This document shows positions 1-60,432 of a DNA stretch of 64,000 nucleotides, piece after piece (position 1 is the stretch's first letter; every line of letters starts with the position of its first letter). Source of the DNA: Mobula hypostoma (Eukaryota); contig NC_086107.1 in NCBI RefSeq assembly GCF_963921235.1, positions 106,146,001-106,210,000 of the forward strand. The letters are read 5' to 3'. The notes below the pieces were generated by a model. The model ran no database searches. It was not told the DNA's origin and was given only the letters and a program-made list of their open reading frames with translations. Both the position numbers and the translations under genes were made by a program.

Positions 1-317
1 CTTCATTTCTTGACACTCTCACTCAGCAGACTGAAATAATCGAAACAAGTGTGGAAGACGATCGGGTGTTCAGTGCCATCTACCCTGCACATGGGGTGGG
101 GGGGGGGATGTTTTTCTTTGAATGGGTTCTATGGTTTTCTTTGTTTTGAGGCTGTCTGCGAAAAGAAGAATCTCAGGGTTGTATACTGCATGCATACTTT
201 GATAATAAATGTATTTTGCATCTTTGTATCTTTTACGATTTCAACAGTTACTTCTTATCAATGGAATAGGCTTTTATCTCTGGCTTGAGTATGAGATAAC
301 AGTGACTTCTTTTTCCT

Positions 318-1013
318 GCAACACACATCAAGGTTGCTGGTGAACGCAGCAGGCCAGGCAGCATCTCTAGGAAGAGGTACAGTCGACGTTTCAGGCTGAG
401 ACCCTTCGTCAGGGCTAACTGAAGGAAGAGCTAGTAAGAGATTTGAAAGTGGGAGGGGGGGAGATCCAAAATGATAGGAGAAGACAGGAGGGGGAGGGAT
501 GGAGCCAAGAGCTGGACAGGTGATTGGCAAAAGGGATACGAGAAGATCATGGGACAGGAGGCCCAGGGAGAAGGGGGGGGGAAGCCCAGAGGATGGGCAA
601 GGGGTACAGTCAGAGAGACAGAGGGAGAAAAAGGAGAGAGAGAGAAAGAATGTGTGTATATAAATAAATAACGGATGGGGTACGAGGGGGAGGTGGAGCA
701 TTAGCGGAAGTTAGAGAATTCTCCCTGGGCCTCCTGTCCCATGATCCTCTCGTGTCCCTTTTGCCAATCACCTGTCCAGCTCTTGGCTCCATCCCTCCCC
801 CTCCTGTCTTCTCCTATCATTTTGGATCTCCCCCTCCCCCTCCCACTTTCAAATCTCTTACTCACTCTTCCTTCAGTTAGCCCTGACGAAGAGTCTCAGC
901 CCGAAGCATCGACTGTACCTCTTCCTAGAGATGCTGCCTGGCCTGCTGCGTTCACCAGCAACTTTGATGAGTGTTGCTTGAATTTCCAGCATCTGCAGAT
1001 TTCCTCGTGTTTG
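318..1013. mobile_element. Penelope-like element remnant: two terminal repeats fused head-to-head, with hammerhead motifs and a 12-bp TSD
   Basis: 318-718 is a minus copy and 719-1013 a plus copy of the sequence following the GIY-YIG ORF at 17094-17426. CTTCTTTTTCCT flanks both sides (306-317 and 1014-1025). Confidence 0.85.
381..416 (-). ncRNA. Minimal hammerhead ribozyme motif
   Basis: Reverse complement reads AGCC-CTGACGA-AGGgtctcagCCT-GAAA-CGTC-GACT; one mismatch in stem I. Confidence 0.7.
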
Positions 1014-2634
1014 CTTCTTTTTCCTCTTCTTTTCTTTGTTCTTTGTTCTTATAACACCTAATAAAATGGCCGTAACCACTAAGTTTTATGTTTCATTCCA
1101 AACTTCCAAAGAACCTCTGGATCAATATCACCAGATCCAACAGCCTAGAGAAGTTCCAGTGACTACAGTAATGGAACTAAGTTGACCAGAACCTGTAATC
1201 CTAATTTAATTACAAAGTTCAAGGTAAATTTATTATCAAGGTGCATACATGTCCTCACATACAACCACGAGATTAATTTTCATAACCATTATATAATCAG
1301 TGAAAGATCACACCAACTTGGGTTTTGCCAATGTGCAAAAGGCAAAAGATTTTGGTGAGGCCAAATTTAGTTCTGGTCTCCGACCAACAAGAAATTTGAC
1401 CGAAGCTGGAAAGCCAAAGCAACGTACACAAAGTGCAGGAGGACCTCAGCAGGTCAGGCAGCATCTGTGGAAGCGAACAAACAGTCAACGTTTCGGGTCG
1501 AGACCCCTCTTCAGGGCTGGAGAGGAAAGGAGAGAAGATACCAGAAAAAAAAGGAGGAGAGCTAGAATGTGATAGGTGAACCCAGGTGGGTGAGAAAGGT
1601 AAGAGGCTGGAGAGGATGGAATCTGAGAGGAGAGGAGAGTGGACCATAGGAGAACGGGAAGGAGGACGGGCATCGGGGGAGATGATAAGCAGATGAGAAA
1701 AAGTAAGAGGCCAGAGTGGGAAATTGAAGAAGAGAGGAGGGGGAGGGAAATGTTTTATCAATAAGCCTGAAAGAGTGCAGAGAATATTGACAGGGATGTC
1801 GCTGGTATGAGTCCTGAGTTACAGGAAGAGGTTGAATAGGTTTGGACTTGATTCCCTGGAGCGCATGAGAATGAGGGGAGTTCGTAAAGAGGAACACAAA
1901 CTTATGAGGGGTACAAACAGGGTGAATGCATACAGGCTCCTCCCCCTGAGGTTGGGAGAAACTAGAGCTAGGAGTATTTAAGAGGAATCTGAGGGCGAGC
2001 TGCATCACTCACTGCATGGTGCTAGTGTGGAACAAGCTGCCCGCAGAACTGGCAGGTGCAGGTTTGACTGGAACAGTTAAGAGAAGTGTCGGAGATATAT
2101 TGATCAGAAAGGGACGGAGGGCTATTGTCCAGGTGCAGGTGTATGGGAACGGGCAGAGAACCAGGCCGGCATGAGCGGAAGGGCCTGTTTTGTTTCTGTA
2201 ATGCTCCGCCACTGCATGAGTCTAGGGCACCACTGTAACCATTAGCTACTCAGATAAAAGTGGATATACCACTTCAAGCTGAAAATTAAAACTAAATTTT
2301 CTTTGTGGTTGAGCAGAGAGAGAGGCTCTAAGTACAGTAATGGCCTGAAAAGTGATTTCTTTGTAGCCTTTTATTTCAATCTCCATGGTTAAATGGGTGT
2401 TTTTCAAAACAAGACAAAGATTAATACCACAGTCAGCTCTAGTTTCTATTTTACAAAGAGCCCTAGAAGCAAATTAGAAAGTGAAAATTGGGTTTACAGG
2501 AATTACTTCAGTTTATAATCAGAATCAGGTTTAATATCACTGGCATATCAAATTTGTTAACTTAGTGGCAGCCGTACAATGCAATACACGATAAATACAA
2601 AGCGAAAGCAGTAGAATGGACTAGCTTGGCTGAA

Positions 2635-3400: not shown

Positions 3401-4812
3401 TTGAACAGTTTTATTCTATCTGTACACTCAGTGGCCATTTCATTAAGGACCTCCTGCCTCTGGGTGAGTGTTCATGGTCGTCTGCTGCTGTAGCCCGTCC
3501 ACTTCAAGGGTCAATGTGTTGTGGGTTCAGAGACGCTCTTCTGCTCACCACTGTTGTAACGTGTGGTTATGTGAGTTGCTGTCGCCGTCCAGTCAGCTTG
3601 AACCGGTCTGGCCGTTCTCCTCCGACCTCTCTCATAAACAGGGTGTTTTCACCCTCAGAAATCCCGCTCACTGTTTTTTTTTGTTTTTCACACCACTCCC
3701 TGTAAACTCTAGTGTTTCAGCAGTTTCTGAGATACTCAAACCATCCCGTCCGGTTAAAGTCACTTCGATCACATTTGTTCCTCATTCTGAGCAACAACTG
3801 AACCTCTTGACCGTGTCCGCATGCTTTTATGCATTGAGTTGCTGCCACGTGATTGGCTGATTAGATATTTGCATTACTAAGCATGTGCGCGGAGCTGTGG
3901 ATCACACAAATATTGCCTGCGTTCAGCGGATGCAGCAAAGAGAGATTGGAAAAATATTTCAAAAGGACAGTTGAAAGTAATGAAGGCTTTTCTCTCTGGA
4001 GTTATTGAATCTGTTTCTGCAGCAAAGAAGATCGGTACCCAGATGGAGCAAATCTCTGGTCATCAGCAATGCAGAAACAAAAGCAAATGTTTCTCTTAAC
4101 AAGTTGAAAAAAAAATAAAAACCTGCAGTAATCAGAAACCTGAAATAAAAGCAGGGAATACCGGAGAGAGCTGTCAAAGTAGGCAGGTTTGTAACTGCAA
4201 GGACTGACGATCAGTACTGACCTTCAGCACTGCCTGAATGGAGCGTGTACACTCTCCCATAACCGTGGGGGTCACCTCAAGTTGTCCGAGTTAACGTCGC
4301 AGAGGTTAATTGGCTACTGTGTATTCCCCTTTGATATGGGTAAATAGCAAAGCATTCAGAAAGGAATTGACGTGGAATTAAAATCTTCTTTCAGTTAGTC
4401 CTGACAAAGGGTCTCGGCCTGAAACATCGACTGTACCTCTTCCTAGAGATGCTGCTTGGCCTACTGCGTTCACCAGCAACTTTGATGTGTGTTGCTTGAG
4501 ATAGGACTGATGAGTTTCTTCTAATTGAAGCCAGCATTTGAAGTGAGGGAGAGAAACAGTATTAATACTTCAGATCTAATAACAGGTCATCAACTACAAC
4601 CATTACATAGCTCTCCCTCTCCCTCCCCCTCTCTCTCCCCCCTCCCTCTCCCTCACCCTCAACTTCTCCCTCTCCCTCTCCCTCCTAGGTTCAGACGGAA
4701 TTCGATGAACTCGATGGGAGACCCTGGGGCAAGTATACTGAGGCATGGGACGTTAAGAGAGTTTATGTGGGATTGGGCACAATGAGCTGAATTCTAAACA
4801 AGAACTTAAACG

Positions 4813-6003: not shown

Positions 6004-6294
6004 AGAAATTGCTTTTAAGAAGTTGAACACCAAATTGATAGATTTCTTTTCTGAACAAGTTTGTTATGTTCAGAAACATAATGGCCCAGCAAGAGAGATA
6101 AAAAAGATTTAGAAGATCTTGAGAAATGGTAACATTAAAAAAAATCCGGCAAATCCAGATAAAGGACACAGATGTACAGTAGTACCAACACTGAAGAGAG
6201 AGGCAAGAGAAGAACAGTTTATTTGGATACAATCTACCTTCCTAGTAAAACGACACCGGGGAAATTCTTGCTCCAATAGTCTATAGATGAATAA

Positions 6295-6830
6295 GCGCAA
6301 CACACACAAAATGCTGGAGGAACTCTGTAGGCCAGGCAGCATCTATGGAAAAGAGTAAACAGTCGACATTTCGGGCTGAGATCCTTCGTCAGGACTGGAA
6401 AGGAAGGAAGGAGATGCCCAGTTTGCGGGGCAGGGGGGTTAGAAATGAAAAAATCCAGAGAGCCAGGGTGGAGTGTCTAAAGAGAGGAGGAGGGGTGAAC
6501 ATGGGAGAAGGGGTCATCAGCGCGGGACGTGGACTCCTTGTCAAAGAAGTGGGCTCGGAGACAGCGGCAACTGAAGAAAACCTCGACATTGTGGCGGGCG
6601 CGGAACTCACTGAGGTGCGGGCACAGGAGGACAAAGGTGAAGCCCTCGCTGAGGACAGATCTTTCTGCCTCAGAGAGGAAAGGTTCGAGGAAGTAGTGAA
6701 GACCTGGCATGGAAGGGAGCTGGGATCAGAAGGGGGAAAATTGCTGGTGGTGTCAGAGGGGAGAGGAGGGTTGAGGTGTTCAGGGAAGGTGGGGTGGGAG
6801 GGAAATGGATGCTCTGAGGACCCAAGATGA
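6295..6830 (-). mobile_element. Penelope-like fragment (N-terminal ORF piece plus terminal repeat)
   Basis: Peptide LSEAERSVLSEGFTFV..PHLSEFRARHNVEVFF..LRAHFF..DDPF resembles the Penelope ORF region upstream of RT (from recall); adjacent to the hammerhead-bearing repeat. Confidence 0.65.
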
Positions 6831-9801: not shown

Positions 9802-12800
9802 CATCTGATGAACTCAAAGGGACGGCAGAGATCGAAACAGTTTAGCACCAGTTTTGATAGTCAGTGTTGAACTCAACGAAGGACTGCCAAAGAGACTCCA
9901 GCCCCAGATTTTTCCCTCGGGGTTTACTCCCGAAGCCTTCCCCATGAATGGGTATAGCAACTAGACAATGGAGGTTTGAAGTCAGGGTTTTCCTTCTCCT
10001 AGATGAGCTGCCAACCACAGCTGATGAGTCCCATCTGCCCAAAACAGCCGGTTTTAAAGCACCAGTAACCTGCCTTTGCCCATTCTCCTGTCAGTAGAAA
10101 TGGTTCTGCCAGGCCTAGTAACAAAGCCACACGTGAAGGCCAGGAGCTGGCCCTGCCTGTCAGAGATTATCTGAGGCTACTTGCATTAGAAGCACCCTTC
10201 TTACTAGGCTGAAATGCTTTGCTGGACCTAATTGTCTCTCACACAGTTGCTGTGTTTGTGCACAGTAAGATCCCACAGATCAACATATTTCTGATGGGGA
10301 ACAGGGACTGGGCAGGAGTTTCTGCTTCGTTCAGCCTTGGAAGGCAGGCCTGATTCATATTTGCTGCCCTCTCCCAATTGCCTCAGCTAAAAACGGTTCA
10401 TTGGCTCAAAAAGGCCGTTCTCGAGTGAGTCGTGTGCCCCGTGAGTGTTTACAAGGATTCAGCCTCGCAGTTACTCCCACAGGCACTGGTCAAAGTCAAA
10501 GTAAGCTTATTATCAAAGTGCGTATATGTAACACTCCGGTTCCGTGAACTGTGTAAGTCTAGGGAAGGCACCCTCCGGCCCCGCCAAACGAGGGCAATTG
10601 AAGTGCACACCCCTCCGAATCCCCCGTTTGTGTGGATGCTACATACAATTAAAAGATTTAGCTTTATACGGAGGAATTTAAGGTGGGGGGTTATATGGGA
10701 GGCAGGTTTTAAGGGTCGGCACAACATTGTGGGCCGAAGGGCCTGTACTGTGCTGTACTATTCTATGTTCTATGTTCTACGTTCTATGTTTATGATTCTT
10801 AATTTGGCTAAAGGGTCTGTAAAGAAAAGGGCCCATTTTAAATGGAACAGTCTAACGTGCACCCCAAGTTGGAGCTCACAGTTTCCTGGCCCCACTCCAG
10901 GTTGACCCTCTGACCTCTCTCTCTTCTCCCCTCTCAAAAGTCCCAAGCCCAACCTTAGTGTCCCTTACCAAAGAATCCTCCCCTGAATCCGTTCATCCCA
11001 ACTGTATGGCACACATTTCTCCTATCTCTTATCTTCAACAGTAACCCAAGCAAGCAGCTTACACAGAGAACAGAAAAGCATAACAGAGAGAACAAATGAA
11101 CCATGTGAACCAGGGCATTACAGATATAAGCCTGGAATACATTTCCTTCCAGGCACTTACTGGAAAATACAACAGTGCCGGCTGATGGTGTAGGGGCATC
11201 CACATCGGTCTTCAAAGCAAATGATCCTGGGTTCGAATCCGGCCGGCTCCTTGCTCACTTTCTGTCCGTGCCTGATCTGAGCGCCAGGCTAGCAACCCGG
11301 CCTCATAAAAAAAAGTCAAAAATGCTAAAGATGCGACAAGGTTGCCACCCGACGCTCCACAAGGCGCAGAGAGGAATAGACACAACAAAGAAATACAATA
11401 GGTATTATGTAAAGCAAGAAATTACAGAGATCGACAAACAACCAATGTGTAAAAGAACACCAGTCGTACAGATAACAAAAAAGTAAATAAGTAAAACCTG
11501 AGTTGTCGACTCTTTGAAAGTAAGTGTAGAGCTCGGGGGGTTCTCAGCCTGCGGTCTGCAGACACTTCTGTTAATGGGGCCCATGGCATTAAAAAAAAGC
11601 TTTGGAACTCTTGGGGAGTTAGTCCTGATGAAGTGTTCTTGGCCCAAAACATCGACTGTTTATTCATTTCCATAGATGCTGCCTGACCCGCTGAGTTCCT
11701 CCAGCATTTTGTGTGTTCTGCTCTGGGTTTCATTGTGTTTGGGTGTCAGTTGTGTTGAGATGGGCCAAGTTATCTGTGCTGGTTCAGGAGCCTGATGGCT
11801 GACAGATAATAACTGTTCCTGAATATGGTGGTGTGGGACCCAAGGCTCCTGGACCTCCTGCCCGATGGTGGTAGTGTCATTGTGTGCACTCACAGCACCG
11901 GATCCAATCCTCGGCTTTGCCTATTGCCCATTGCCGGGGCTGGGGTCAAAGCGCTCGGCAGAGATGGCGCTCGGTGCTCGGTGTCGGAGAGCTGGTGGGA
12001 GGCTCGGAGTTTTTCGGACGGACTCGGAGTCGGACCGTGGTCGGAAGCTTCCAGGACGCTGCATCGGCAAGTTGGCGGCGCTGGAGGTTCACCGTCTGCG
12101 TGAGATGATGGGACTTTCGAGAGACTCTGAGACTTTTACCGTGCCCATGGTCTGTTCTTATCAAATTACGATATTGTTTTGCACTGTTGTAACTATATGT
12201 TATAATTATGTGGTTTTTGTTAGTTTTTAAGTCGGTTTGTCATGTGTCTCTGTGATATCATTCTGGAAAAACATTGTATCATTTCTTAATGCATGCATTA
12301 CTAAGTGACGATAAAAGAGGACTGCGTGTCCTCATAATCTAAAAAAATACAGAGGAACAGCAGGCTTTCTCAGTCACAGTGGTCATAGGCAGCGTCTCAA
12401 CTCAACTCACGATCCAACCCAGGAGCAGAGGAACGGCAGAAGGGACGAAACAAGAGGGTAGGCTTAGGAACGCCGACAGAGCCTCAGGAGGGACAACTGA
12501 GAGACCCCTTTAAATAATCACAGAATGCGGAAAACACGTGCCAGGCACAATTCGCTTGACAAGATTAAACCGAAAGGGCGAGTTAGGACAGCGGTTAGCA
12601 AATACGAGCGCTCGAGAAGCCTGGATCAATGTTCTACAGCAAGCCACAGAGGCCCGCAGGGCTCAGGACAGTAGTGAGAAGAGAGCACGGCCTGATTGAT
12701 GGAAGACCTCGAAGACGGATAGTGCTTCCTTGCGGCAGCGCTCCTTGCAAGTGTGCTCCATGAGAGCGAGCGGCTCTGCCTGTGATGATCCAGGCTCTAT

Positions 12801-15659: not shown

Positions 15660-16607
15660 CCTCCTATACCTAATAAAGTGGCCACTAAGTGTACTGAATG
15701 TTCGTGGTCTTTTGCTGCTGTAACCCAACAACTTCAAGGACTGATGTGTTGTGCGTTCAAAGATGCTCTTCCGCACACCACTGTTGTAACGTGTGGTTAC
15801 TTGAGTTGCTGTCACCTTCCTGTCAGCTTCAACCGGTCTGTCCATTTTCCTCCGACCTCTCTCATTAACGAGGCATTTTCGCCCACAGAACTGCTGCTCA
15901 CTGGATTTTTTTTTTCACACCATCCTCTGTAAACTCTAGAGACTGTTATGCATGAAAATCCCAGGAGATCAGCAGTTTCTGCAATACTCAATCCACACAG
16001 CATGGCACCATCGATCATTTCATGGTCAAAGCCACTTAGATCACATTTCTTCCCCATTCTGATGTTTGGTTTGCACTACAACTGAACCTCTTACCCATGT
16101 CTGTATGCTCTTAAGCAATGAGCTCTTCGGGCTTGTGTGGGCATTTGGGCTCTGAGGTTTTTAGAGGACCTGAATTGGTTAATTGTTGTTTAATGAGAGA
16201 CATTAAACACTTAAGAGTTCCTTCTCTTTTTCTCTAGTGACTTGTGGCTTTGTAATGTGGTCTTCTGGTGCTTTCTGTTTAAACTTGTTAAGTTTATCTT
16301 GATAGGCTCAAGGATTTTCGTGTTAAGCGGACGCCCAATTAGTGCTACTTACGGGGTCCTAGTTTTGAGACTGTTACTTCTCATGGTGTCACTCGTCCGA
16401 GCCACAGATATTCTGTTGGAATCCTTAAGAATAAACTTAGTCGCCGTCTCTACGTTGGAGTCTGCCTTTCCTCCGCGCGTGGGCTCCAACATTGCCAGCG
16501 CACATCGTGGCTCTTTTACGCATTGAGCTGCTGCTACGTGCTTGGCTGATGATACCTTTTTATTAATGAGCAGGTGTACTGGTGTGCCTAATAAAGTGGC
16601 CACTGAA
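15660..16607 (-). mobile_element. Tc1/mariner remnant interrupted by an LTR-like insert (about 16113-16510)
   Basis: Peptide MGKKCDLSGFDHEMIDGA..GLSIAETADLLGFS..VSRVYR; TIR at 16585-16607. Confidence 0.75.
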
Positions 16608-16699
16608 TCTATATTGTCATGAACCAGTTTGTGGGACAAAACCGATCCAGCTCCACTGGCCCCTGAACCTTGTTGAATCAATCAATCTTCCTTTTTTAA

Positions 16700-17823
16700 A
16701 GAAAGGGGCTTCCCTTCCTCCACTATCAACTCTGCTCTTAAACGCATCTCCCCCATTTCATGTACATCTGCTCTCACTCCATCCTCCCGCCACCCCACTA
16801 GGAATAGGGTTCCCCTGGTCCTCACCTACCACCCCACCAGCCTCTGGATCCAACATATTATTCTCCGTAACTTCCGCCACCTCCAACGGGATCCCACCAC
16901 TAAGCACATCTTTCCCTCCCCCCGTCTCTCTGCATTCCACAGGGATCGCTCCCTACACAACTCCCTTGTCCATTCGTCCCCCCCATCCCTCCCCACTGAT
17001 CTCCCTCCTGGCACTTATCCGTGTAAGCGGAACAAGTGCTACACATGCCCTTACACTTCCTCCCTTACCACCATTCAGGGCCCCAAACAGTCCTTGCAGG
17101 TGAGGCAACACTTCACCTGTGCGTCGACTGGGGTAATATACTGCGTCCGGTGCTCCCGATGTGGCCTTTTATATATTGGCGAGACCCGACGCAGACTGGG
17201 AGACCGCTTTGCTGAACATCTACGCTCTGTCCGCCAGAGAAAGCAGGATCTCCCAGAGGCCACACATTTTAATTCCACATCCCATTCCCATTCTGACATG
17301 TCTATCCACGGCCTCCTCTACTGTAAAGATGAAGCCACACTCAGGTTGGAGGAACAACACCTTATATTCCGTCTGGGTAGCCTCCAACCTGATGGCATGA
17401 ACATCGACTTCTCTAACTTCCGCTAGGCCCCACCTCCCCCTCGTACCCCATCTGTTACTTATTTTTATACACACATTCTTTCTCTCACTCTCCTTTTTCT
17501 CCCTCTGTCCCTCTGAATATACCTCTTGCCCCTCCTCTGGGTTCCCCCCCCCCACTTGTCTTTCTTCCCGGACCTCCTGTCCCATGATCCTCTCGTATCC
17601 CCTTCTGCCTATCACCTGTCCAGCTCTCGGCTCCATCCCTCCCCCTCCTGTCTTCTCCTATCATTTTGCATTTCCCCCTCCCCCTCCAACTTTCAAATCT
17701 CTTACTCACTCATTCAGTTAGTCCTGACGAAGGGTCTCGGCCTGAAACGTCGACTGCACCTCTTCCTACAGATGCTGCCTGGCCTGCTGCGTTCACCAGC
17801 AACTTTGATGTGTGTTGCTTGAA
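16700..17823 (+). mobile_element. 5'-truncated Penelope-like retroelement (GIY-YIG endonuclease plus terminal repeat)
   Basis: Peptide VIYCVRCSRCGLLYIGETRRRLGDRFAEH...EEQHLIFRLGSLQPDGMN preceded by a CKRNKCYTC Cys linker. The 3' repeat carries a hammerhead core. Confidence 0.9.
17720..17755 (+). ncRNA. Minimal type I hammerhead ribozyme motif (Penelope-associated)
   Basis: AGTC-CTGACGA-AGGgtctcggCCT-GAAA-CGTC-GACT: stem I AGTC/GACT, both conserved core boxes, GUC cleavage triplet, loopless palindromic ACGT stem III. Activity not testable here. Confidence 0.8.
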
Positions 17824-18576
17824 TCAATCAAGTGTTTGTCTTCCTGGACTACGTTAATTTCAATGACTGTGCAACAGTTTCACAGCGTATGTTCGCTCTT
17901 TACGGTGATTATTTCCATTTTAAGAACACAGTGCATTTCCCTTTTAAGAAAATTTGCAACAGTACGGCAATGAAGAAGCAGATTTATCTTCATCTCGCCT
18001 GGGCAATGGTATATGTGCTTCATTATTAATGCAGGGCCTAACCTCTCAAAGTTTATAGCCAGTACTGTTGACATTGTAGAGTTCATTCATTTGAGTTTAA
18101 ATTTCCCAACTGCATTCTTAGGATTCGAACTCGCATTTCAGATCAATATTTAGGCCTTTAGGTACGAGCCTAGTAACATAACCACCACACTACCGTGTCT
18201 TTAACAACCTAAGTCCACTATCTCCAGTTGTAAAGTGCAGCACTTACTATATAAACAGAGTTGTTTTCCAGGGACTCTCTCTCAGCTTTTCCTTTCAGTC
18301 AAATAACTAACTGCTGGAGGAACTCCAGCACCTGTGGGGGAAAGTGTACAGTCGATGTTTCGGGTCGAGACCCATCGTCAGGTCTCGGCCCAAAATGTCA
18401 ATTGCTTATTCTCCCCTGTGTAGATTCTGCCTGAGCTGCCGGGTTCCTCCAGCATTTGGCATGTGCTGCTCAAACTGCTGTGTCTGGCTGATGTTTCATG
18501 TCGAGACCCTCATCTATTATCTGGACTGGCTTCATCTCAGTCCTGATGAGGGCTCGTGACCCGAAGCGTCAAGTGC

Positions 18577-18862
18577 CCATTTCACCACACGGATGCTGCC
18601 TGGCCTGCTGAGTTCCTCCAGCATTTTGTGTGCGTTGCTCAGGATTTCCGGAATGTTGTGTTTTTTCACATTTCAGGATGACTTCAAAGCACCGAGTTTC
18701 CATTTCCCCACACGGATGCTGCCTGGCCTGCTGAGTTCCTCCAGCATTTTGTGTGCGTTGCTCAGGATTTCCGGAATGTTGTGTTTTTCACATTTCAGGA
18801 TGACTTCAAAGCACCGAGTTTCCATTTCCCCACACTGATGCTGCCTGGCCTTCTGAGTTCCT
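18577..18862. repeat. Tandem duplication of a ~123-bp Penelope-tail unit (2 full copies plus a partial third)
   Basis: CCACAC(G/T)GATGCTGCCTGGCCT recurs at 18585, 18708 and 18830. Confidence 0.85.
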
Positions 18863-24563: not shown

Positions 24564-24599
24564 AGTCCTGACGAAGGGTCTCAGCCCGAAACATCGACT
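24564..24599 (+). ncRNA. Minimal hammerhead ribozyme motif
   Basis: AGTC-CTGACGA-AGGGtctcagCCC-GAAA-CATC-GACT (AUC triplet; stem III palindrome broken). Confidence 0.6.
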
Positions 24600-28105: not shown

Positions 28106-28141
28106 AGTCCTGATGAAGGATCTCAGCCCGAAATGTCGACT
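28106..28141 (+). ncRNA. Minimal hammerhead ribozyme motif (duplicated counterpart at 6361-6396 minus)
   Basis: AGTC-CTGATGA-AGGAtctcagCCC-GAAA-TGTC-GACT. Confidence 0.55.
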
Positions 28142-28291
28142 GTTCACTCTTTTCCATAGATGCTGCCTGGCCTGCTGAGTTCCTCCAGCATTTTGTGTGT
28201 GTTGCGCTTACTCATCTATAGACAATTGGAGCAAGAATTTCCCCGGTGTCGTTTTAATAAGAAGGTAGATTGTATCCAAATAAACTGTTCT

Positions 28292-30971: not shown

Positions 30972-30994
30972 TACAGATAGAATAAAACTGTTCA

Positions 30995-31750: not shown

Positions 31751-34700
31751 TCAGCCAAGCTAGTCCATTCTACTGCTCTTTGCTTCATAACAACGTCTTG
31801 CTAACATGCCTCATTTCACCCTATCACCCCATTTTCATGGAGACACAAGAACCTTCAGATGCTGGAAGCTGAAGAGAAAAAAAAATGAGTTGCTGGAGGA
31901 ACTAAGCATCTGTGTGGAGAGAATTGGGTAAACGAAGTTTCAGGTCAGGCATACAGATGGACGAAACTGAAGGGCCTTGATCCAAAATATTGACTGTCCA
32001 CGTCCTCCTACTGATGCTGCCTGGTTCTTCCAGCAGCTCATTTTTTCATCCCTGTTTCATATTCTTCTTCCCCACCCCAAGCTTCCTCTTCAATGTATCT
32101 CTGTCCTGCAGTGCAACCACACTCACGAGAAGCTCTCCCCAATCACTGTGACGATCTTAAAAAAGCACATCTCCAATCAGCTCTTTGACAGAAAGGAACT
32201 CTTGCCTGTTTGCCTAAACCACTCAAAAGCCTCTACAGATGTACTGTAGGGAGCATTCTGACAGGCTGCATCACTGCCTGGTATGGGGAGGGAGGGCTAA
32301 TGCACAGGATCGAAAGGAGCTGCAGAAAGTTGTAAAATGAATCAACTCCATCATGGGTACTTGTCTCCACAGTATCCAAGCTACCTTCAAGGAGCGGTGC
32401 CTCAGGAAGGCAGCGTCCATTATTAAGGACCCTCATCACCTCATGACCCTCCTCTCATTGTTAGTGTCAGGTAGGAGGTACAGGAGCCTGAAGGCACACG
32501 CTCAGCGATTCAGGAACAGCTTCTTCCCCTCTGCCACCCGATTCCTAAATGGACATTGAACCCATGGACACTACCTCACCTGTTTTAAAAGTTATTTCTG
32601 TTTTTGCACTACTATGTTTAATTCAGCTATTTAAAATACATACAGACATTTACCGTAATACTCTTTTTTCTATATTTATCATGTATTGCATTGTACGGCT
32701 GCCACTAAGTTAACAAATTTGACAACATATGCTGGTGATATTAAACCTGATTCTGATTATAAACTGAAGTAATTCCTGTAAACCCAATTTTCACTTTCTA
32801 ATTTGCTTCTAGGGCTCTTTGTAAAATAGAAACTAGAGCTGACTGTGGTATTAATCTTTGTCTTGTTTTGAAAAACACCCATTTAACCATGGAGATTGAA
32901 ATAAAAGGCTACAAAGAAATCACTTTTCAGGCCATTACTGTACTTAGAGCCTCTCTCTCTGCTCAACCACAAAGAAAATTTAGTTTTAATTTTCAGCTTG
33001 AAGTGGTATATCCACTTTTATCTGAGTAGCTAATGGTTACAGTGGTGCCCTAGACTCATGCAGTGGCGGAGCATTACAGAACCAAAACAGGCCCTTCCGC
33101 TCATGCCGGCCTGGTTCTCTGCCCGTTCCCATACACCTGCACCTGGACAATAGCCCTCCGTCCCTTTCTGATCAATATATCTCCGACACTTCTCTTAACT
33201 GTTCCAGTCAAACCTGCACCTGCCAGTTCTGCCGGCAGCTTGTTCCACACTAGCACCATGCAGTGAGTGATGCAGCTCGCCCTCAGATTCCTCTTAAATA
33301 CTCCTAGCTCTAGTTTCTCCCAACCTCAGGGGGAGGATCCTGTATGCATTCACCCTGTTTGTACCCTTCATAAGTTTGTGTTCCTCTTTACGAACTCCCC
33401 TCATTCTCATGCGCTCCAGGGAATCAAGTCCAAACCTATTCAACCTCTTCCTGTAACTCAGGACTCGTACCAGCGACATCCCTGTCAATATTCTCTGCAC
33501 TCTTTCAGGCTTATTGATAAAACATTTCCCTCCCCCTCCTCTCTTCTTCAATTTCCCACTCTGGCCTCTTACTTTTTCTCATCTGCTTATCATCTCCCCC
33601 GATGCCCGTCCTCCTTCCCGTTCTCCTATGGCCCACTCTCCTCTCCTCTCAGATTCTATCCTCTCCAGCCTCTTACCTTTCTCACCCACCTGGGTTCACC
33701 TATCACATTCTAGCTCTCCTCCTTCCCCTCTCTCACCTTTTTATTCTGGTATCTTCTCCCCTTCCTTTCCAGCCCTGAAGAGGGGTCTCAGCCCGAAACG
33801 TTGACTGTTTGTTCGTTTCCACAGATGCTGCCTGACCTGCTGAGTTCCTCCTGCATTTTGTGTACGTTGCTCTGGATTTCCAGCTTCGGTCGAATTTCTT
33901 GTGTTTTTGTTGTGTTGTAGGGAGGTGACCAGAACTAAATTTGGCCTTACCAACATCTTCTACGGCTACAATATAACATCCCGACTCTTGTACTCAATGG
34001 CCTGATTTATGAAGTTCAATCTGCCAAAAGCTCTCTTTCCAACCGTATCTACCTGTGATGCCGCTTTCAAGGAATTGTTCCCAGGTCCCTTTGTTCTCCC
34101 ATTCACCCTAATTGCCTTATCTCCTTGCCTGCCCATCACCTCCCTCTGGTGCTCCTCCCCCCGTTTTCTTTCTTCCATGGCCTTCTGTTCCCTTCATTCC
34201 TCCCCCACCAGGTTTCACCTGTCACCTGGTGTTTCCCTCTCCCCTCCCCCACCTTTTAAAGCTACTCCTCAGCTTTTTTTCTCCAGTTCTGACGAAAGGC
34301 TTCGGCCTGAAACGCCGACCGTACTTTTCTCCGTAGATGCTGCCTGGCCTGCTGAGTTCCTCCAGCATTTTTTGTGTGTGTTGCTTGGATTTCCAGCATC
34401 TGCAGAGTTTCTTGGTTTGTTTGTGACCTTATAGCCCTGTCCTTCACTTTGTGTGTCATACCTTGGCTTTTCTTCCCAAAGTGCAACACCTCACTCTTGC
34501 CTGCATTAAAGTCCTGTCCTGTACAATTTAAGCTTTCTTACTCATTCCTCGAGTGCAAGCACATTACACACTCACAGAGGCCACCTTGTTATTCAGCAAT
34601 AATGATCAATAATTTCCTCAGCAGGGTGAGCAGTTTCGCGTTCCTGGGTGTCAGCATCTCTGAAGATTTATCCTGGGACCGACCTATTGATGCAAGTTCA

Positions 34701-42951: not shown

Positions 42952-43145
42952 GGTTGGGTTGAGTTGTTCTTCGATCTTGGCAATCCATTTGCAAACGTTT
43001 CGCCACCATCCGAGGAGACATCGTCAGTGTGCAGTTCATTCAGAGGACACACCACCAATGAATAGTACACTGATGAGGTCTCCTCGCATGGTGATGAAAC
43101 GTTTGCAAATGGATTCCCAGGAATGGCGAACAACTCAACCCAACC
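42952..43145. mobile_element. Palindromic element with two opposed hammerhead-like cores (second Penelope-type family)
   Basis: Arms 42952-43040 and 43057-43145 are reverse complements (outer 18 bp exact). CTGATGA...GAAACGTT on plus at 43070-43103 and CTGACGA...GAAACGTT on minus at 43026-42994. Confidence 0.75.
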
Positions 43146-51609: not shown

Positions 51610-52513
51610 ATGTCTAAGACTCTTGCACAGTACTGTATTAATTTTATGTATTGCACTGTACTGCTGCCACAAAAAAAATCAAATTTTATGGCATATGTGA
51701 ATGATAATAAACCTGATTCTGATCTGGGTCTCTACTGTGGACTGAGAGTCGAAAGGGGCAGGGAGGGGGGAATCATGGTTGGGAAAGGGGAAGGGAGAGG
51801 GGAGGGAGCGGGAAGCACCAGAGAGACATTCTATAATGATCAATAAACCAGTTGTTTGGAATCAGACGACTTTGCCTGGTGTCTTGGGGCTGGGTGTGTC
51901 CGCTCTCGCACACCCCAACCCCTGTCACTCCTCCTGCTCCATCTGTCCCACACCCTTCCCTTGGCGCATCACCCTCACCATTCCCAACATCCTTTGCTCC
52001 CGCCAGATTTGCTCCACACTCCACCTTGGCAAATACAATACTGTGCAAAAGTCTTAGGCACCTTAGCTATACATATATAATACTAGGGGAAAAATACTGG
52101 GAGTTCATTGTCTGTTCAGAAATTGGATGGCAGAAGGGAAGAAGATGTTCCTGAATCATTGTATATCTTCAGGCTCCCTGAAGGTAGCAATGAGAAGAGG
52201 GTATGCCCTGGGTGATGGAGGTCCTTAATGATGGACGCTGCCTTTTTGAGGCATTGCCTTTGCACTTGAATTCCTTAACCATAATCTGTCATCTATGTCT
52301 CTGTGCTCCCTCATAACTGGGCACTTTAAGCAACACACATAACATGCTGGAGGAATTCAGTAAGTCAGGCAGCCTCTATAGAGAGGAATTCACAGTCGAT
52401 GCTTTGGGCTGAAACCCTTGATCAGGACTGCTGGAAGAAGGCACAGATTATGGGGTGGGTTGGAGATTATTGGGCTGGAAAAAGGTATGATGTAATCTGG
52501 AGCAAGACTATCA

Positions 52514-53302: not shown

Positions 53303-55227
53303 GTGGAGTTATCCGGTGCCCTGTGAATAATCCCTGTCTGGTACCAGAGTTTTCCACCCCAGCACAATCAGTGAGCATTGTTACGGCTTGGCTTTCATTC
53401 CCCAGGATTATGGCTCCATCCCCCTTCCTTTCCAGTCCTGAAGAAGGGTCTTGGCCTGAAACATCAGCTGTTTATTCCTCTCCATAGATGCTGCCTGACC
53501 TGCTGAGTTCCTCTAGCATTTCGAGTGCGTTTCTCTGGATTTCCAGCATCTGCAGAATCCCTTGTGTTTTTGTTATACTGTGCACTTTAAGTTTATTTAA
53601 TAATTTTTTGTTTGGCACCTTATCTAAGGTTCGGAAAGTCCAAACACATCACAGCAACGGCTTCACCCTTGTCTAAACAGTGAGCTAGAATCGTAAAGAA
53701 TTCCAACACATCTGCAAACAATTTCCTTTCCAGCATCTGCAGAATTCCTGTTGTTTTCCTATCCCTTAAATTACGTTGACTCCGCCCAGTCCTATTATTA
53801 TTTTCACTGCCTAACGACCACTTCCTGAGTCATAAACTCTAACATTCTCCCTGCCAATCTAATGGATTATCGTTGTGTTTTTATTCTCTCTCTCCCTCTC
53901 CTTTCCTAAACCATAGAAACCATTCCAAAGAATGTGAAAATCTGAAAGGTGATGCTCAATGCATTCACTATCTCCATGGTCACCTCTTTCATATCCCCAG
54001 GATACAGCTTATCATGTCCTGAGGATTTATTGCATTTCCATCTTTGCTCCAGTGTTAATATTTTAATAATTCTAATTCTTTTCAACTCCTCACTGCCCTC
54101 AGTCTATAGTCCTCCACAATTTCCTGAACGTATTCTGTGTATTCTTTGTTGAAAACAGAAACAAGTTAATCACTTAATATCTTTAAATCTCTCGCCCGAA
54201 ACGTCGACTGTACCTCTTCCTAGAGATGCTGCCTGGCCTGCTGCGTTCACCAGCAACTTTGATGTGTGTTGCTTGAATTTCCAGCATCTGTAGAATTCCT
54301 CATATTTGCGTCTTTAATTCTCCTGATTCTTTAAGGGACACACAGTAACTTTTACTATTTTCTATTTTACATACTTAAGGTTCCTTCAGGTTGTTACAGC
54401 CTGGGCTGGTAATGGGGACAAGCTCCCGCTACCTATTAAACACGCCCCCAATGGCGTGTGCCTCGAGTAGCCTCTGACAACCAGTCCAGCTCCTGGCCTT
54501 CACGTGTGGCTTAGCAACCAAGCCCAGCAGGACCATTGCTACTGACAGGAGAAGGGGCAAAGGTGGGTTACTGGCACCTTAGAAACCAGTCGCTTCGGGC
54601 AGTTGGGGCCTATCAGCCGTGGTTGGAAGCTCTTCTAGGAGGAGGAAAACTGCTCTCAAACTTCCTCTGCCTTGCAGTTGTACACACTCATGGAGAAGGC
54701 TTTGAGAGGGAAAGACCCGGAGATGGAGTCCCTAAGGCAGTCCTACGCTGAGCTCAACGCTGACTGGCAACTCCTGCGATGTCGCTGGGGCCAAACTGTA
54801 TCAGTCTCTGCTGTTCCTTTGGATTGATCAATGTGGAGAGGGGGAGCTTGCTACTTGTGCAACAGCTTGCCCTCCATATTGTCCTGCCCAGGCTTGTGTA
54901 TCTCGACAGCTGGGATGGTCGACCCCGGCCGACGGAGGCCTCAGGTACATTTCATTGATTAATTAATTTACTTAGTGATACAGTGCAGGGAACGCCCTTG
55001 TGGTCCCTTCAAGCCACGCTGGCCCAGTGATCCCCAACAAACACAATGAACACTACCCTAATCATGGGACAATTTACAATGATTAACCTTCCCGGCATGT
55101 GGGAGGAAATCGGAGCACTTGGGGAAAACACACGCACTTCGCGGGGTGGGGAGGGGAAAATACAGACTCTTTATGGGTGGCGCTGGAATTGAACTCTGTA
55201 ACGGCCCGAGGGGTAAATGTGTCGTAC

Positions 55228-56705
55228 TCACAACACGCTGGAGGAACTCAGCAGGTCGGGCAGCATTCATGGAAAAGATCGGTCAACGTATCGGGCCGGA
55301 ACCCTTCATCAGGACTGAAGAGGGAAGGGGCAGAGGCCCTTTAAAGAAGGTGGGGGAGGGTGGGAAGGAGAAGGCTGGTAGGTTCCAGGTGAGAAACCAG
55401 TAAGGAGAAAGATAAAGGGGTGGGGGAGGGGAAGCAGGGACGGGAGAGGCAGGAGAGGTGAAGAAGGAACAGGGGAAAACACAATGGGTAGTAGAAGGAG
55501 GCGGAACCGTGAGGGAGGTGATAGGCAGCTGGGGGAGGGGGCAGAGTGACATAGGGATAGGGGAAGGGAGGGGGAGGGAATTACCGGAAGTTGGCGAATT
55601 CTATGTTCATACCAAGGAGCTGGAGACTACCTGAACGGTATATGAGGTGTTGCTCCTCCAACCTGAGTTAATGTGTCGTACTAATTGTTATGCTACCGTG
55701 GCGCCCGTATCTTACGTATCTTTGGAAGGTCTTACAATCTTTATTCGTGTCTCTCATCACCCTGCTCTCTCTTGATCCCATTTCATCACACAGGAGCACA
55801 AGAGGCTGCAGTCCGGTCCATCATGGACACATCCCTCCCCAGCGCTGACAGCAGCTACAGCAGGGACTGCCTCAGGAACAACACACACACACACACACAC
55901 AAAATGCTGGGGGAACTCAGCAGGTCAGGCAGAGTCTGTGGAGATGAACCAACAGTCGACGTTTTGGGCCGGGGCTGTTCTTCAAGACTGGAAAGGAAGG
56001 GGGAAGATGCCAGAGTAAAAAAGGTGGGGGAGAGAGGAAGGAGGTCCAGCTGGAAGGAGACAGGTGAAGCCAGGTGGATGGGAAAGGGAAAGGGCTGGAG
56101 AGGAAGGAATCTGATAGGAGGGGAGAGTGGAGGAAGGGAAGAAGGAGGGGACCCAAGGGGAGGTGAGAAGAGGTAAGAGGCCAGAATGGGGAATAGAAGA
56201 ATAAGGGAGGGGTAGGGAATTTTTTTTTTACCAGAAGGAGAAATCAATGTTCATTCCATCAGGTTGGAAGCTGCACAGATGGAAAATAAGGTGTTGCTCC
56301 TCCACCCTAAGAGTGGCCTCATCTGGCGCAAGAGGAGGCCATGGACCGACTTGTGGTTGTCAATGTAGCAAAGGAAGAGTTGGGCAGCATTTACCAGGGA
56401 GGGCTTGGAACATGGACTGTTTTACTTAGCCAACAAAAAGGTGGGCATAGCTGGGGCCTATAAGGGTATCCATGGTTACCCCCTTCAATCTGGAGAAAGT
56501 GGGAGGAACCAAAGGAGAAACTGTTGAGGGTGAGGACCAATTCTGCCAAACAGAGGAGGGGAACTGGTTGGTTGTTTTTTTGCTGAGGAAGAAGCAGAGA
56601 GCTTTAAGTCCTTCTTGATGGGGGACAGAAGTGATTAGGGACTGGACATCCATGGTGAAAATTAAGCGGTCAGGGCCAGGGAATTGAAAGCTGTTGAGGA
56701 GATCT
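55228..56705 (-). mobile_element. Cluster of Penelope-like fragments (two 3' ends and an RT piece)
   Basis: RT-like peptide FQFPGPDRLIFTMDVQSL.TSVPHQEGLKAL; endonuclease C-terminus homology at 55580-55665 and 56225-56345; terminal repeats at 55228-55320 and 55878-55995. Confidence 0.7.
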
Positions 56706-57964
56706 GCAGAATTTCTTCTGTTTATGATTCGTTTCCTTGCAACAGTGGACTGAGGTAGTACAAAGGAAAACAATAACTGAATGCAGGTTAAAATGTTACA
56801 GTTCCAGAGGAAGTTGTAGTGCAGGCAGATAATAAGATGCAAGTCCATAACAGAATATATCAAAGTGGTGAAACCCCTTTTTACTGGGCGTCTCTGAAAA
56901 TGCAGCTCGTTAGCCCCTCGCTAACAGCCACTGGACTCTGCAGCGAAGAACCCACCTTTCTCAGGGTCCGTACGTCTAGGATGTACACGACCTTGGACCC
57001 GCCAAACCCGTGAGGTTGGGATGTCTCACCCACCCAAACCCCAGTTTGCGTGAGTGCTGTGAGATTTACTTCCCCCCACCCCCTGCAATCACCGTTGGCA
57101 AGAAATCACAGATCATACACTGCATACAATTATAAAGGAAGCATATTTAAGAATGTTAACCAAACAGTTATTAAAGAAAAAGAAAAAAAACAAACGGGCC
57201 CATCATAACTAAACAGGCAAATGTGCAGATAAGTTGGAGCTCATCTTGCATTTGTCTTTAAATCACCTGCTGGTTCCTCAGTCTGCGTGAAAGCACGCAC
57301 CACCTTCCCAAATGTCGCTCAAAACCCATCCCAAACAAATGGGCTTTCCCACGGGAGTATTGGCCCTTCCCCCTTGAAGCCACTCATCTGCACAAAGCAC
57401 CTTGTGCAACAGGGACGGCATCCTCAGCCATCTTCCCTCCTGTCTTCTCCCAGCTCCCGCCAAAAAAGACCTCGACCCACACCAGTTTCCCTTACAAAAA
57501 CCTCTCCACCCAGCATTCTCTAGAACCTTCTCCCAATTGCACCATCCTGACTGGCTGACACCACGTTCCTAAGTTGAACAGCAAAGCCCCTTATCTCAGC
57601 TCTTACAGAACTGCTAAAAATGAAATACCTACATAACATCAGCAAAAACCTTAAGCAGGGTTAGAAGCTGTTCCTTAAATCTGATGTCCATGCTTTTAAG
57701 TTTTTGTATTTTCTGCCTGATGGGAAGGAGGAAGCTGAGAATGTCCAAGGCAGATGAGGTCCTTGATTATGGTGGCTATCTGGCTGAGATAGCAAGAATT
57801 GTAGACAGAATTCACGGCTGGTTTCTGTAATGTGCTGAGAAGCGTCCACAACTCTCTGCAGTTTCTATCAAGGGAAATTTGGAGCTTAGGGCCCAGGTAT
57901 TAGAATCAGAGAAGATTAGGAGGCCAGAGTGCAGATATCACAGGAGTTTAAGAAGATTTACAGA

Positions 57965-59218: not shown

Positions 59219-59943
59219 AAAATGGAGGGGTTTGGGAGGGGGTAAGACTGTGAAGGAAACAGAAAACCAATGTGTATATTAAATCTGAAGCACAGACAGT
59301 CCGGACTTAGTATGGGTGCACAAACACAGGCAGGGATGATGGGTCATTGGGCATTGCAGGGGATAAGAATTTTTATGATTCGCCGTAAGGATGAAAACCT
59401 TTTAATTTAACTTAGCTTGTGTTACTAGTTGTATTAGTCACTGTTTTGTCTATATTTTGATGTTGTATCTTGCGGTATTAGAGAATGTAATTTATAATGC
59501 AGGTATTTTTTTAAGGATGATTGAATGAAACCTGGTATTGGTTCCAACGTGGGCAGTAGAGTTTGAGGTGACCTGGAGGAAGGAGAGGGTCAACTCTCAA
59601 AAAACCGGAGGACACGCAAGATTCTGCAGATGCTGGAAATCTTGAGCAACACACACAGAATACTGGAGGAACTCAGCAGGACAGGCAGCATCTATGGAGG
59701 GGAATAAACAGTCTACCTTTTGGGCTGAAAACTTCCATCAGCCTGAAATGCTCCTCCATAGATGCTGCTTGACCCGCTGAGTTCCTGCAGAACTTTGTAG
59801 GTGAGTCAACTCTAGAAGGCACGGAGAATTTTTCAGGAGGGCCACACCTGGCTGTCCCGTATTTACTGATTGGATAGCGAACTTCTGTGCTGGTGTCATG
59901 CAACGGGCATCACACTGTGCCCCAGGACTGTCCCCGTGCTTAC

Positions 59944-60166: not shown

Positions 60167-60432
60167 CTAGTCGGCAGGCAAGACAGAACAGAACAAGAAT
60201 GGTAGCACGTCATAAACACAGTCTGCACATCAGGTATTAGCGTCACAAACATGAGAAGATCTCCAGATGCCGGAAATCCAAAGCGACACGCACAAAATGC
60301 TGGTACAGCGGGTCAGGCAGCATCTATGGAAAAGAGCAGACAGTCGACGTTTCGGGCCGAGACCATTCTTCAGGACCAAGAAGAAAGGGGAAGATGCCAG
60401 AATGAAAAGGTGTGCATATGGCCAAGGAGGGA

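What the first reader, a model, noticed from the sequence alone, without database searches (positions are those of the whole stretch)
17720..17755. A dispersed family of minimal, probably dimer-dependent hammerhead ribozymes in Penelope terminal repeats
Seen: the motif AGTC-CTGAnGA-(stem II)-GAAA-CGTC-GACT recurs about 20 times. Best copies: 17720+, 381-, 6361-, 24564+, 28106+, 33771+, 1483-, 53434+, 60342-. Decayed copies: 879, 4397, 11621, 18350, 18539, 34285, 52394, 55282, 55954, 59710. At 17720 it directly follows a GIY-YIG ORF. Established: CUGAnGA, GAAA and NUH form the hammerhead core, and Penelope-like elements carry minimal hammerheads in their terminal repeats. Inference: stem III has no loop (GAAA-CG-UC, palindromic ACGU), so a monomer cannot fold and cleavage would need two copies paired, as a tandem or in trans. 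Most copies here lack any ORF, suggesting a SINE-like ribozyme-bearing family.
Basis: partly seen in the sequence, partly recalled or inferred. Interest (0 to 1): 0.8.

Follow-up and report, generated by a model that had tools for sequence, protein, structure and literature searches.

The report
Penelope mini-hammerheads in a ray genome
The repeated motif matches an already described tiny self-cutting RNA (minimal hammerhead) at the end of a Penelope-type jumping gene, here scattered as cut-short, mostly mutated copies in what is likely a ray genome; it is predicted to cut only as a pair, so it is ordinary, though a second such family nearby closely resembles one from liver flukes.

Summary
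The motif is real: 18 of the 19 listed copies score above all shuffles. It is a known kind, the minimal type I hammerhead of Penelope-like elements (Cervera and De la Pena 2014), whose dimer dependence is published. The 17720 copy ends a 5'-truncated, Neptune-type insertion (16686-17818) with a 13-bp target-site duplication; the closest protein is from the ray Mobula (92%). The short copies are not a SINE. They have staggered left ends, two right ends about 35 bases apart, and head-to-head inverted pairs, all published Penelope signatures. Only 5 of 19 keep every catalytic feature. Covariation is not significant, and cleavage was not tested. The scan found this same family before in other shark or ray genomes. 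It matches Clonorchis motifs in the 2014 supplement, and its best hit among 1.84 billion proteins is from Opisthorchis. Horizontal transfer is possible but rests on about 100 bases.

The parts
17720..17755 (+). Minimal type I hammerhead motif: stem I 17720-23 with 17752-55; core box 17724-30; extra A 17731; stem II 17732-43 (4 bp, G-U closing, or a 3-bp A-U register without the extra base); GAAA 17744-47; palindromic ACGU 17747-50; predicted cut after C17751
16686..17818 (+). 5'-truncated Neptune-type Penelope-like insertion: end of the ORF, 3' UTR, hammerhead, 3' block; no tail
16686..17426 (+). [quoted passage not shown]
   Evidence: Pfam PF01541 E=1.2e-4; motifs; 92% to a Mobula hypostoma protein
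16673..16685 (.). Left copy of the 13-bp target-site duplication
   Evidence: the longest match in 300 random site pairs was 10 bp
17819..17831 (.). Right copy of the 13-bp target-site duplication
17771..17818 (+). Conserved block downstream of the ribozyme; its start is complementary to the tail in tailed copies; likely part of the site that the element's protein recognises (inferred)
318..1013 (.). One insertion made of two head-to-head truncated copies (motifs at 381-416 minus and 879-914 plus), tail on one arm only, 12-bp target-site duplication at 306-317 and 1014-1025
4384..4499 (+). Short copy of about 115 bp, absent from the paralogous duplicated segment near 29781-29811
1483..1518 (-). 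Motif copy that keeps all catalytic features; segmental duplicate of 33771
33771..33806 (+). Motif copy that keeps all catalytic features; about 260 bp of UTR upstream, tailed
6361..6396 (-). Motif copy with broken palindrome; segmental duplicate of 28106
28106..28141 (+). Motif copy with broken palindrome
11621..11657 (+). Decayed short copy that starts about at stem I
18307..18672 (.). Cluster of decayed copies in head-to-head arrangement (18350-18385 minus joined to 18381 plus; 18490-18527 minus beside 18539 plus)
24564..24599 (+). Short copy with broken palindrome that starts about at stem I
34285..34320 (+). Copy of another subfamily: stem II fully paired with A-U and C-G in place of G-C and U-G; U16.1 mutated
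52394..52429 (-). Decayed short copy
53434..53469 (+). Tailed short copy with broken palindrome
54190..54310 (+).
55244..56716 (-). Two older copies with coding remnants: reverse-transcriptase piece 56716-56393 and endonuclease end 56354-56238 before the motif at 55954-55989; endonuclease end 55700-55568 before the motif at 55281-55316
59607..59803 (.). Head-to-head inverted pair that includes the decayed motif at 59710-59745
60342..60377 (-). Tailed copy with intact core; first pair of stem II is a U-C mismatch
42952..43145 (.). Second, unrelated minimal-hammerhead family: head-to-head pair (motifs near 42990-43031 minus and 43066-43107 plus), 6-bp stem II, ACGU palindrome, arms 84% alike; resembles liver-fluke Penelope-like motifs

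Best explanation
The motif is the minimal type I hammerhead in the terminal repeat of a very abundant Neptune-type Penelope-like retrotransposon of what is likely a ray, the dispersed copies are 5'-truncated insertions of that element and most likely inert, and the ribozyme is predicted to cut only when two copies pair. Shown: the motif, the upstream GIY-YIG ORF remnant with the Neptune-type linker, target-site duplications, staggered left ends, two right ends, inverted pairs, and lesions in 14 of 19 copies. Inferred from published Penelope work: the element's endonuclease nicks the target and its reverse transcriptase starts at one of two internal sites about 67-73 and 100-108 bases downstream of the scissile bond. 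It copies an RNA that is uncut or rejoined at that bond and usually stops early, sometimes adding an inverted second copy. Predicted: in tandem parent elements two repeats on one transcript pair their ACGU palindromes to form stem III and cut after C17751, slowly and perhaps with help from the element's protein. Confidence is about 0.9 for the identity and origin of the copies and about 0.6 that this family's dimer really cuts.
For: Motif far above chance. It fits the published metazoan consensus: extra base between positions 9 and 10.1, palindromic 15.2-16.2, short stem I (PMC4209133). A one-pair stem III closing a 2-base loop is forbidden in the folding model. GIY-YIG domain plus CX2-5CxxC linker, a mark of Neptune and Nematis and absent from Penelope/Poseidon (PMC8557442). 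Relatives of about 900 aa carry the RT domain PF00078. Target-site duplications of 13 and 12 bp against at most 10 bp in 300 random pairs. Empty paralogous site for the 4397 copy. Left ends at -1034, -314, -158, -13 and +15 within one subfamily; right ends at +98..104 or +131..139, like the published 30-40 bp tail. Contigs of public runs cover 16688-17831 with summed depth rising about fivefold towards the 3' end (depth is not copy number). Within the ribozyme, the only differences reaching 6% in any of 4 runs are CpG transitions, 2-12%. None of 28 profile hits begins at the cut site (ends approximate).
Against: No cleavage data for this family. Rfam gives no hammerhead match. Covariation does not exceed shuffles (78 of 500 reach the score). 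The core is not better conserved than the block at 17771-17789 (p=0.39). Published in-vitro activity of such motifs is low even as dimers; 8 of 9 Xenopus retrozyme dimers did not cut; the anole ribozyme was not needed for insertion in vitro and no reads ended at its cut site. The folding program prefers a competing duplex on the 6-base palindrome that spans the scissile bond. No full-length tandem parent could be seen, since no genome is held. Clade placement rests on motifs, not on a tree.
Confidence: 0.85

Rival explanations
1. Many short copies are run-off copies of the RNA's first 100-140 bases: the transcript starts about at stem I, reverse transcription starts internally and runs off the 5' end. 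This refines the best explanation rather than replacing it.
For: 4 copies (11621, 18539, 24564, 52394) and 2 inversion arms have no UTR match beyond 4 bases upstream of stem I. Loose ends at 17720-17722 are among the best-supported in DNA runs, with low agreement of 0.32-0.40. Internal initiation is shown for the anole element. Earlier scan notes e1-8637149, e1-9927094 and e1-8026433 propose this (unchecked notes, a lead only).
Against: 17720 is also where similarity between subfamilies begins, and the loose-end consensus there reads like another subfamily's UTR, so the two cannot be told apart. Other short copies start at -13, -15, -22, -35 and +9..+21. Contigs cannot show RNA starts.
Confidence: 0.35
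2. The short copies are a separate non-autonomous family (SINE-like or retrozyme-like) that replicates on its own RNA.
For: 16 of 19 copies lack coding remnants. Non-autonomous hammerhead repeats derived from Penelope ends are described, including in one cartilaginous fish (bioRxiv 10.64898/2026.07.22.740005). A few contigs show a short jump back from 17824 to 17720 (tables 5 and 5c), so small tandems exist.
Against: Staggered left ends within one subfamily, continuous with an ORF-bearing copy at 88-96% identity. No tRNA gene. No tandem array of the motif among the arrays longer than 150 bp in the window. Retrozymes carry canonical hammerheads in tandem arrays (PMC7229834).
Confidence: 0.08
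3. The motif is a catalytically dead relic, kept only because it is part of a signal for the element's protein, a promoter or a splice site.
For: The downstream block is as conserved as the core. Pyrimidine tracts ending in AG lie just before stem I and just after the ribozyme; in D. virilis the intron ends at the start of helix I. Hammerheads are dispensable in Naiad elements.
Against: All catalytic positions are the majority letter in the window copies, while N7, the loop and the linker vary. Stem II stays paired in a divergent subfamily (34285). No spliced-junction peptide among the 173 proteins checked.
Confidence: 0.15
4. Dispersed copies are working ribozymes that cut host transcripts, in trans or as mixed pairs.
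For: 5 of 19 copies keep all catalytic features. Two of them (381 and 1483) lie on the same strand 1102 bases apart.
Against: 0 of 19 has a perfect stem I together with a G-C first pair of stem II and an intact core. The 381 copy would be locked in a 259-bp hairpin with its inverted partner (inferred). The other close same-strand neighbours each include a damaged copy. Decay is at CpG sites, as for neutral DNA.
Confidence: 0.05

Closest known systems
Minimal hammerheads (min-HHR) in the terminal repeats of metazoan Penelope-like elements, Cervera and De la Pena 2014, PMC4209133 (read: parts 1-2 of 4 of the text; parts 1-2 of 3 of supplementary file 2; file 1 could not be searched)
   Same: Type I topology, both core boxes, an extra base after A9, no stem III loop, palindromic ACGU, location in the 3' repeat after a GIY-YIG ORF, mostly single dispersed motifs, opposite-strand pairs 100-700 bp apart, dimer model.
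   Different: No cartilaginous fish among the rows I read or in a term search of that file. Stem II is short (4 bp), like the Acropora Neptune row and unlike fish Poseidon/Xena rows (7 bp). The youngest subfamily closes stem II with G-U, which also occurs in several published rows.
Neptune clade of endonuclease-bearing Penelope-like elements (Craig et al. 2021, PMC8557442; read: abstract, outline and passages)
   Same: C-terminal GIY-YIG endonuclease, CX2-5CxxC linker, 5' truncation, inverted truncated partner, 30-40 bp tail at one end, hammerhead in the repeat.
   Different: No full-length or tandem copy in the window, and no tree was built, so Neptune against Nematis rests on the full-length linker motif.
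Poseidon element of Anolis carolinensis (Frangieh et al. 2024, PMC11167929; read: parts 1-2 of 4)
   Same: Two right ends that bound a tail; copies span the scissile bond, as expected if uncut RNA is the template.
   Different: Other clade. Its ORF starts inside the ribozyme, whereas the ATG after this family's ribozyme is not in a conserved frame across subfamilies (my reading). The second family at 42952-43145 does have an ATG at that place.
Luense, Weinberg and Breaker 2016, small hammerhead variants of Penelope-like elements that cleave as dimers (not held; seen only as a title and citation in review PMC6765202)
   Same: By its title and the review: short palindromic stem III, cleavage as dimers.
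   Different: I could not check whether shark or ray motifs are among its examples.
Non-LTR retrozymes (PMC7229834, passages; bioRxiv 10.64898/2026.07.22.740005, parts 1-3 of 5; its supplements are closed)
   Same: Type I hammerhead, link to Penelope terminal repeats, reported in one cartilaginous fish.
   Different: They are tandem arrays of ORF-less units; the copies here are single or inverted truncations of an ORF-bearing element.

Membership tests
Minimal type I hammerhead of Penelope-like elements | Core boxes CUGANGA and GAAA, and NUH at the cut site | tested here: met
   Intact at 17720; majority letter at every core position in 15 copies
Minimal type I hammerhead of Penelope-like elements | Stems I and II can form, with an extra base between positions 9 and 10.1 | tested here: met
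   87.5% of cells paired against 4-46% when slid; -6.0 kcal/mol for the target fold
Minimal type I hammerhead of Penelope-like elements | No stem III loop; palindromic 15.2-16.2 | tested here: met
   ACGU in 9 of 19 copies including those with other lesions; most losses are CpG-type
Minimal type I hammerhead of Penelope-like elements | G10.1-C11.1 first pair of stem II (more than 80% in the published consensus) | tested here: inconclusive
   C in 10 of 15 window copies, but U at 17743 in this copy and in most of the depth laid on it (biased to near copies). G-U occurs in published rows
Minimal type I hammerhead of Penelope-like elements | Compensatory changes across families | tested here: inconclusive
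   1 pair with a change on both sides; not above shuffles
Minimal type I hammerhead of Penelope-like elements | Self-cleavage as a dimer, not as a monomer | not testable with these tools
   Needs in-vitro transcription; only contigs, no raw reads, were offered
Penelope-like element, Neptune type | C-terminal GIY-YIG endonuclease with CCHH residues | tested here: met
Penelope-like element, Neptune type | CX2-5CxxC linker before the endonuclease | tested here: met
   At residue 116 of P0001
Penelope-like element, Neptune type | Reverse transcriptase in the same ORF | tested here: inconclusive
   Truncated away at 17720; an RT piece precedes the 55954 copy; long relatives carry PF00078
Penelope-like element, Neptune type | 5' truncation, inverted partner, optional 30-40 bp tail, target-site duplication | tested here: met
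Penelope-like element, Neptune type | Head-to-tail tandem that forms two terminal repeats around an ORF | not testable with these tools
   None in the window; no genome held; pattern scans of contig collections found nothing
Penelope-like element, Neptune type | Placement in the Neptune group by an RT tree | not tested
   No named reference sequences were at hand
SINE | Fixed 5' end with a tRNA-, 5S- or 7SL-derived head (definition recalled) | tested here: not met
   Staggered left ends; no tRNA gene; no Rfam match
Non-LTR retrozyme | Tandem array of ORF-less units, each with a hammerhead | tested here: not met
   None among the arrays longer than 150 bp in the window; not testable genome-wide

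The most novel reading that the evidence does not exclude
The second hammerhead-bearing Penelope family in this window (42952-43145) was horizontally transferred between liver flukes (Clonorchis/Opisthorchis lineage) and rays, a parasite-host exchange of a ribozyme-carrying retroelement across phyla. Its minus arm matches a published Clonorchis motif at 50 of 58 positions by hand count, loop and flanks included, and its read-through peptide has an Opisthorchis viverrini protein as best hit among 1.84 billion.
Probability: 0.3. Interest if true: 0.55.

Novelty: new member of a known kind. Interest (0 to 1): 0.2.

Why it matters
As flagged, it matters little: minimal, dimer-type hammerheads in Penelope repeats were described in 2014, and truncated Penelope ends are expected debris in fish genomes. 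It extends the list to rays, which I did not find in the 2014 tables that I read or in searches (Luense 2016 could not be read). The family is useful material for an open question, what these ribozymes do for the element: it is abundant and young, and its copies were made from RNA intact at the scissile bond. The fluke-like second family would matter more if a transfer were shown. Searches returned no paper whose title or abstract reports one; most subscription journals are not in the library.

Tried and rejected
No genome was held, so no genome-wide search. Exact-pattern scans of viral and metagenome contigs found 0 loci for either family. The Rfam scan found no hammerhead; its two best hits are an inverted pair at 59666-59787 that mimics a hairpin family. 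Covariation was not significant for the ribozyme, and 0 of 15 predicted pairs in the downstream block had a change on both sides. Splicing idea (AG at stem I or before the ATG at 17772; GT at the ORF stop in older subfamilies): no junction peptide in 173 proteins, and the youngest subfamily lacks that GT. A joint 17401 to 17720 appears only in two runs guessed to be RNA, with unknown letters between and incomplete counts in the DNA runs. Left open, not claimed. The ATG at 17772 as ORF start was rejected because the frame differs between subfamilies. Target-site duplications were clear for 2 of 13 elements tested, plausible for 1 (9 bp, pair at 59607-59803) and within the random range or absent for 10. 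Pfam hits on the tandem-repeat ORFs (Toxin_16, RDM3_C, Mucin-like) were treated as artefacts of translated minisatellites. Look-ups of earlier scan notes by sequence, and by words on the fluke lead, were empty. The anole supplement gave no sequence to compare.

Full report
Observation. The 36-base motif stands at 17720-17755 as described, and all 19 listed places hold a copy. In local alignment 18 of 19 score 32-72, while three block shuffles of the window reach at most 24-28; the copy at 59710 scores 24. A core pattern gives 7 matches against 0.02 expected, and a structural descriptor gives 9 against a mean of 0.06 in 50 shuffles. A profile of the motif with its 3' region finds 28 pieces, 16 of which were training sequences. 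Rfam, searched down to E=1, finds no hammerhead.

Anatomy. The copy at 17720 reads as a type I hammerhead: a 4-pair stem I, the first core box, one extra A, a 4-pair stem II, GAAA, the palindrome ACGU, and C17751 as the cut position. Stem II has two possible registers: G-U closing with the extra base (-6.0 kcal/mol for the whole target fold), or A-U closing without it (-4.6). For two strands the program prefers another duplex, on the 6-base palindrome that spans the scissile bond. It cannot represent the double hammerhead, so this is a caution, not a test.

State of the copies. Only 5 of 19 keep both boxes, UH, the palindrome and at least 3 of 4 pairs in each stem (381, 1483, 17720, 33771, 60342). 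None of the 19 also has a perfect stem I and a G-C first pair of stem II. The copies 1483/33771 and 6361/28106 lie in an inverted segmental duplication of about 1346-6586 with 27902-33959, and 381/879 are one insertion, so there are at most 16 independent events among the 19.

The element. The ORF upstream ends at 17426, 293 bases before the motif. [quoted passage not shown] Craig et al. 2021 give this linker as the mark of Neptune and Nematis, absent from Penelope/Poseidon (PMC8557442, passages). The closest proteins are from the rays Mobula hypostoma (92%) and Hypanus sabinus (82%), then sharks, so the host is likely a ray. Relatives of about 900 aa with an RT domain exist (95 hits). A 13-bp direct repeat at 16673-16685 and 17819-17831 bounds the insertion at 16686-17818; the longest match in 300 random site pairs was 10 bp. 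Two more copies have coding remnants upstream: 55954 (an RT piece and the endonuclease end) and 55282.

Why not a SINE. Within the youngest subfamily (88-96% alike) left ends lie at -1034, -314, -158, -13 and +15 relative to 17720. Right ends fall in two groups, +98..104 and +131..139. The pair at 318-1013 is head-to-head, has the tail on one arm only and a 12-bp target-site duplication. Further head-to-head pairs lie near 18381, 45440 and 59740. The copy at 4397 is missing from the paralogous segment, where about 30 bases of target are replaced. Heavy 5' truncation, an inverted truncated partner and a 30-40 bp tail at one end are the published signatures of these elements, and the anole work ties the tail to two internal start sites of reverse transcription (PMC11167929). 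No tRNA gene is in the window.

Public runs. 18 of 24 listed runs, from four coded organisms, hold over half of the sampled words. One DNA run laid 241,633 contigs on 16600-17900. Cover starts near 16688 and ends near 17831, and summed depth rises from 1.8 to 9.3 million towards the 3' end. This is no copy number, but it shows that ORF-bearing copies are abundant. On 17714-17830 the only differences inside the ribozyme that reach 6% in any of 4 runs are transitions at two CpG sites (17748-49, 17751-52; 2-12%), while the linker varies by 32-68% at 17757 and 17769. U at 17743 is therefore not private to this copy, although laying favours near copies and 10 of 15 window copies have C there. All runs are contigs and the RNA label is a guess, so nothing is shown about expression or cut ends. 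No loose end at 17752 is among the 24 rows shown (485 not shown).

In 15 window copies (1518 dropped as a duplicate; 16 of the 28 profile hits were aligned), non-CpG mismatches are 6 of 135 in the core, 51 of 195 in the linker and 103 of 705 downstream (copies are related, so p-values are optimistic, and a local misalignment inflates the last figure). The block at 17771-17789 is as conserved as the core (20 of 285, p=0.39). On 16 aligned copies 87.5% of stem cells pair, against 4-46% when slid, but covariation does not exceed shuffles. The test is half met.

Mechanism. Shown: a decaying set of truncated insertions of one retrotransposon family, nearly all spanning the scissile bond; 0 of 28 profile hits begins at it (ends approximate). 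Inferred: the template RNA was uncut or rejoined there. Predicted from PMC4209133: in tandem parents two repeats pair their palindromes and cut slowly; that paper found no monomer activity and low dimer activity for a schistosome motif. The anole ribozyme cuts only with protein and is not needed for insertion in vitro. Lone copies lack a partner, and inverted pairs would fold into long hairpins, so the copies here are most likely inert.

What is known. The class, its location and the dimer model are published (PMC4209133; review PMC6765202, passages). Luense et al. 2016 could not be read. Sharks and rays are not in the parts of the 2014 supplement that I read or term-searched (file 1 not searchable), but a 2026 preprint reports hammerhead repeats in one cartilaginous fish (supplements closed). 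Eight earlier notes of this scan describe the same kind of element in other shark or ray genomes. They are unchecked and serve only as leads; three of them prompted the left-end check, which is compatible with a cluster at stem I but cannot separate it from a subfamily boundary.

A second family. They form a head-to-head pair, arms 84% alike over 89 bases, with a 6-pair stem II and the same palindrome, and no other copy in the window. The minus arm matches the row Clonorchis sinensis (2) of supplementary Fig. S3 of PMC4209133 at 50 of 58 positions by my hand count, 37 of 45 outside the fixed core. Its 37-residue read-through found 2 hits at E<=0.001 among 1.84 billion proteins. The better (E=1.1e-5) is an Opisthorchis viverrini hypothetical protein and the other is unnamed; identity is 18 of 25 residues, and both arms match. 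The arms differ at 14 of 89 places, 3 of them CpG-type, which points to an old insertion rather than parasite contamination, though the nearest repeat shared with the rest of the window is about 850 bases away. Against over-reading: the match is about 100 bases of structurally constrained sequence, the protein is probably a spurious translation of repeats, the same supplement shows one motif family nearly unchanged from pufferfish to frog and viper, and I recall (from no call) similar repeats in reptiles. I put a real fluke-ray transfer at about 0.3.

Verdict. This is a new member of a known kind, interest 0.2; the only part with higher potential is the fluke-like second family.

Noticed in passing
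window 42952-43145: Second minimal-hammerhead family as a head-to-head pair; close to Clonorchis motifs in PMC4209133 Fig. S3 and to Opisthorchis viverrini protein P0174; an ATG begins at core position A9, as in the anole Poseidon element.
   Followed up: partly
window 1346-6586 and 27902-33959: Inverted segmental duplication at 89-97% identity, with a polymorphic Penelope insertion (4384-4499) in one arm only.
   Followed up: partly
window 17710-17721 and 17757-17774: Pyrimidine tracts ending in AG lie just before stem I and just after the ribozyme, like splice acceptors; older subfamilies have a GT at the ORF stop. A joint 17401 to 17720 shows only in two runs guessed to be RNA. Unresolved.
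   Followed up: partly
window 927-1015 and other tailed copies: The first 8 bases of the downstream block are complementary to the tail in 7 of 8 aligned copies, closing a large stem; no compensatory changes.
   Followed up: partly
window 4812-6001, 29074-29466, 47770-49357: 33-bp minisatellite arrays that give long open frames with spurious Pfam hits.
   Followed up: no
window 60430-64000: Array of a 19-bp unit (about 188 copies) running to the end of the window.
   Followed up: no
window 35088-36233 (+) and 58064-59278 (-): Reverse-transcriptase remnants of other retroelements (PF00078); 52514-53302 and 57972-58760 are a 97% identical inverted pair.
   Followed up: no
window 18539-18862: The 3' part of the 18539 copy is repeated twice more in tandem at about 122-base spacing.
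   Followed up: no
protein P0004 (Stegostoma tigrinum), residues about 505-520: The C-terminal read-through looks like a translated copy of the same hammerhead, suggesting the motif is shared with sharks.
   Followed up: no
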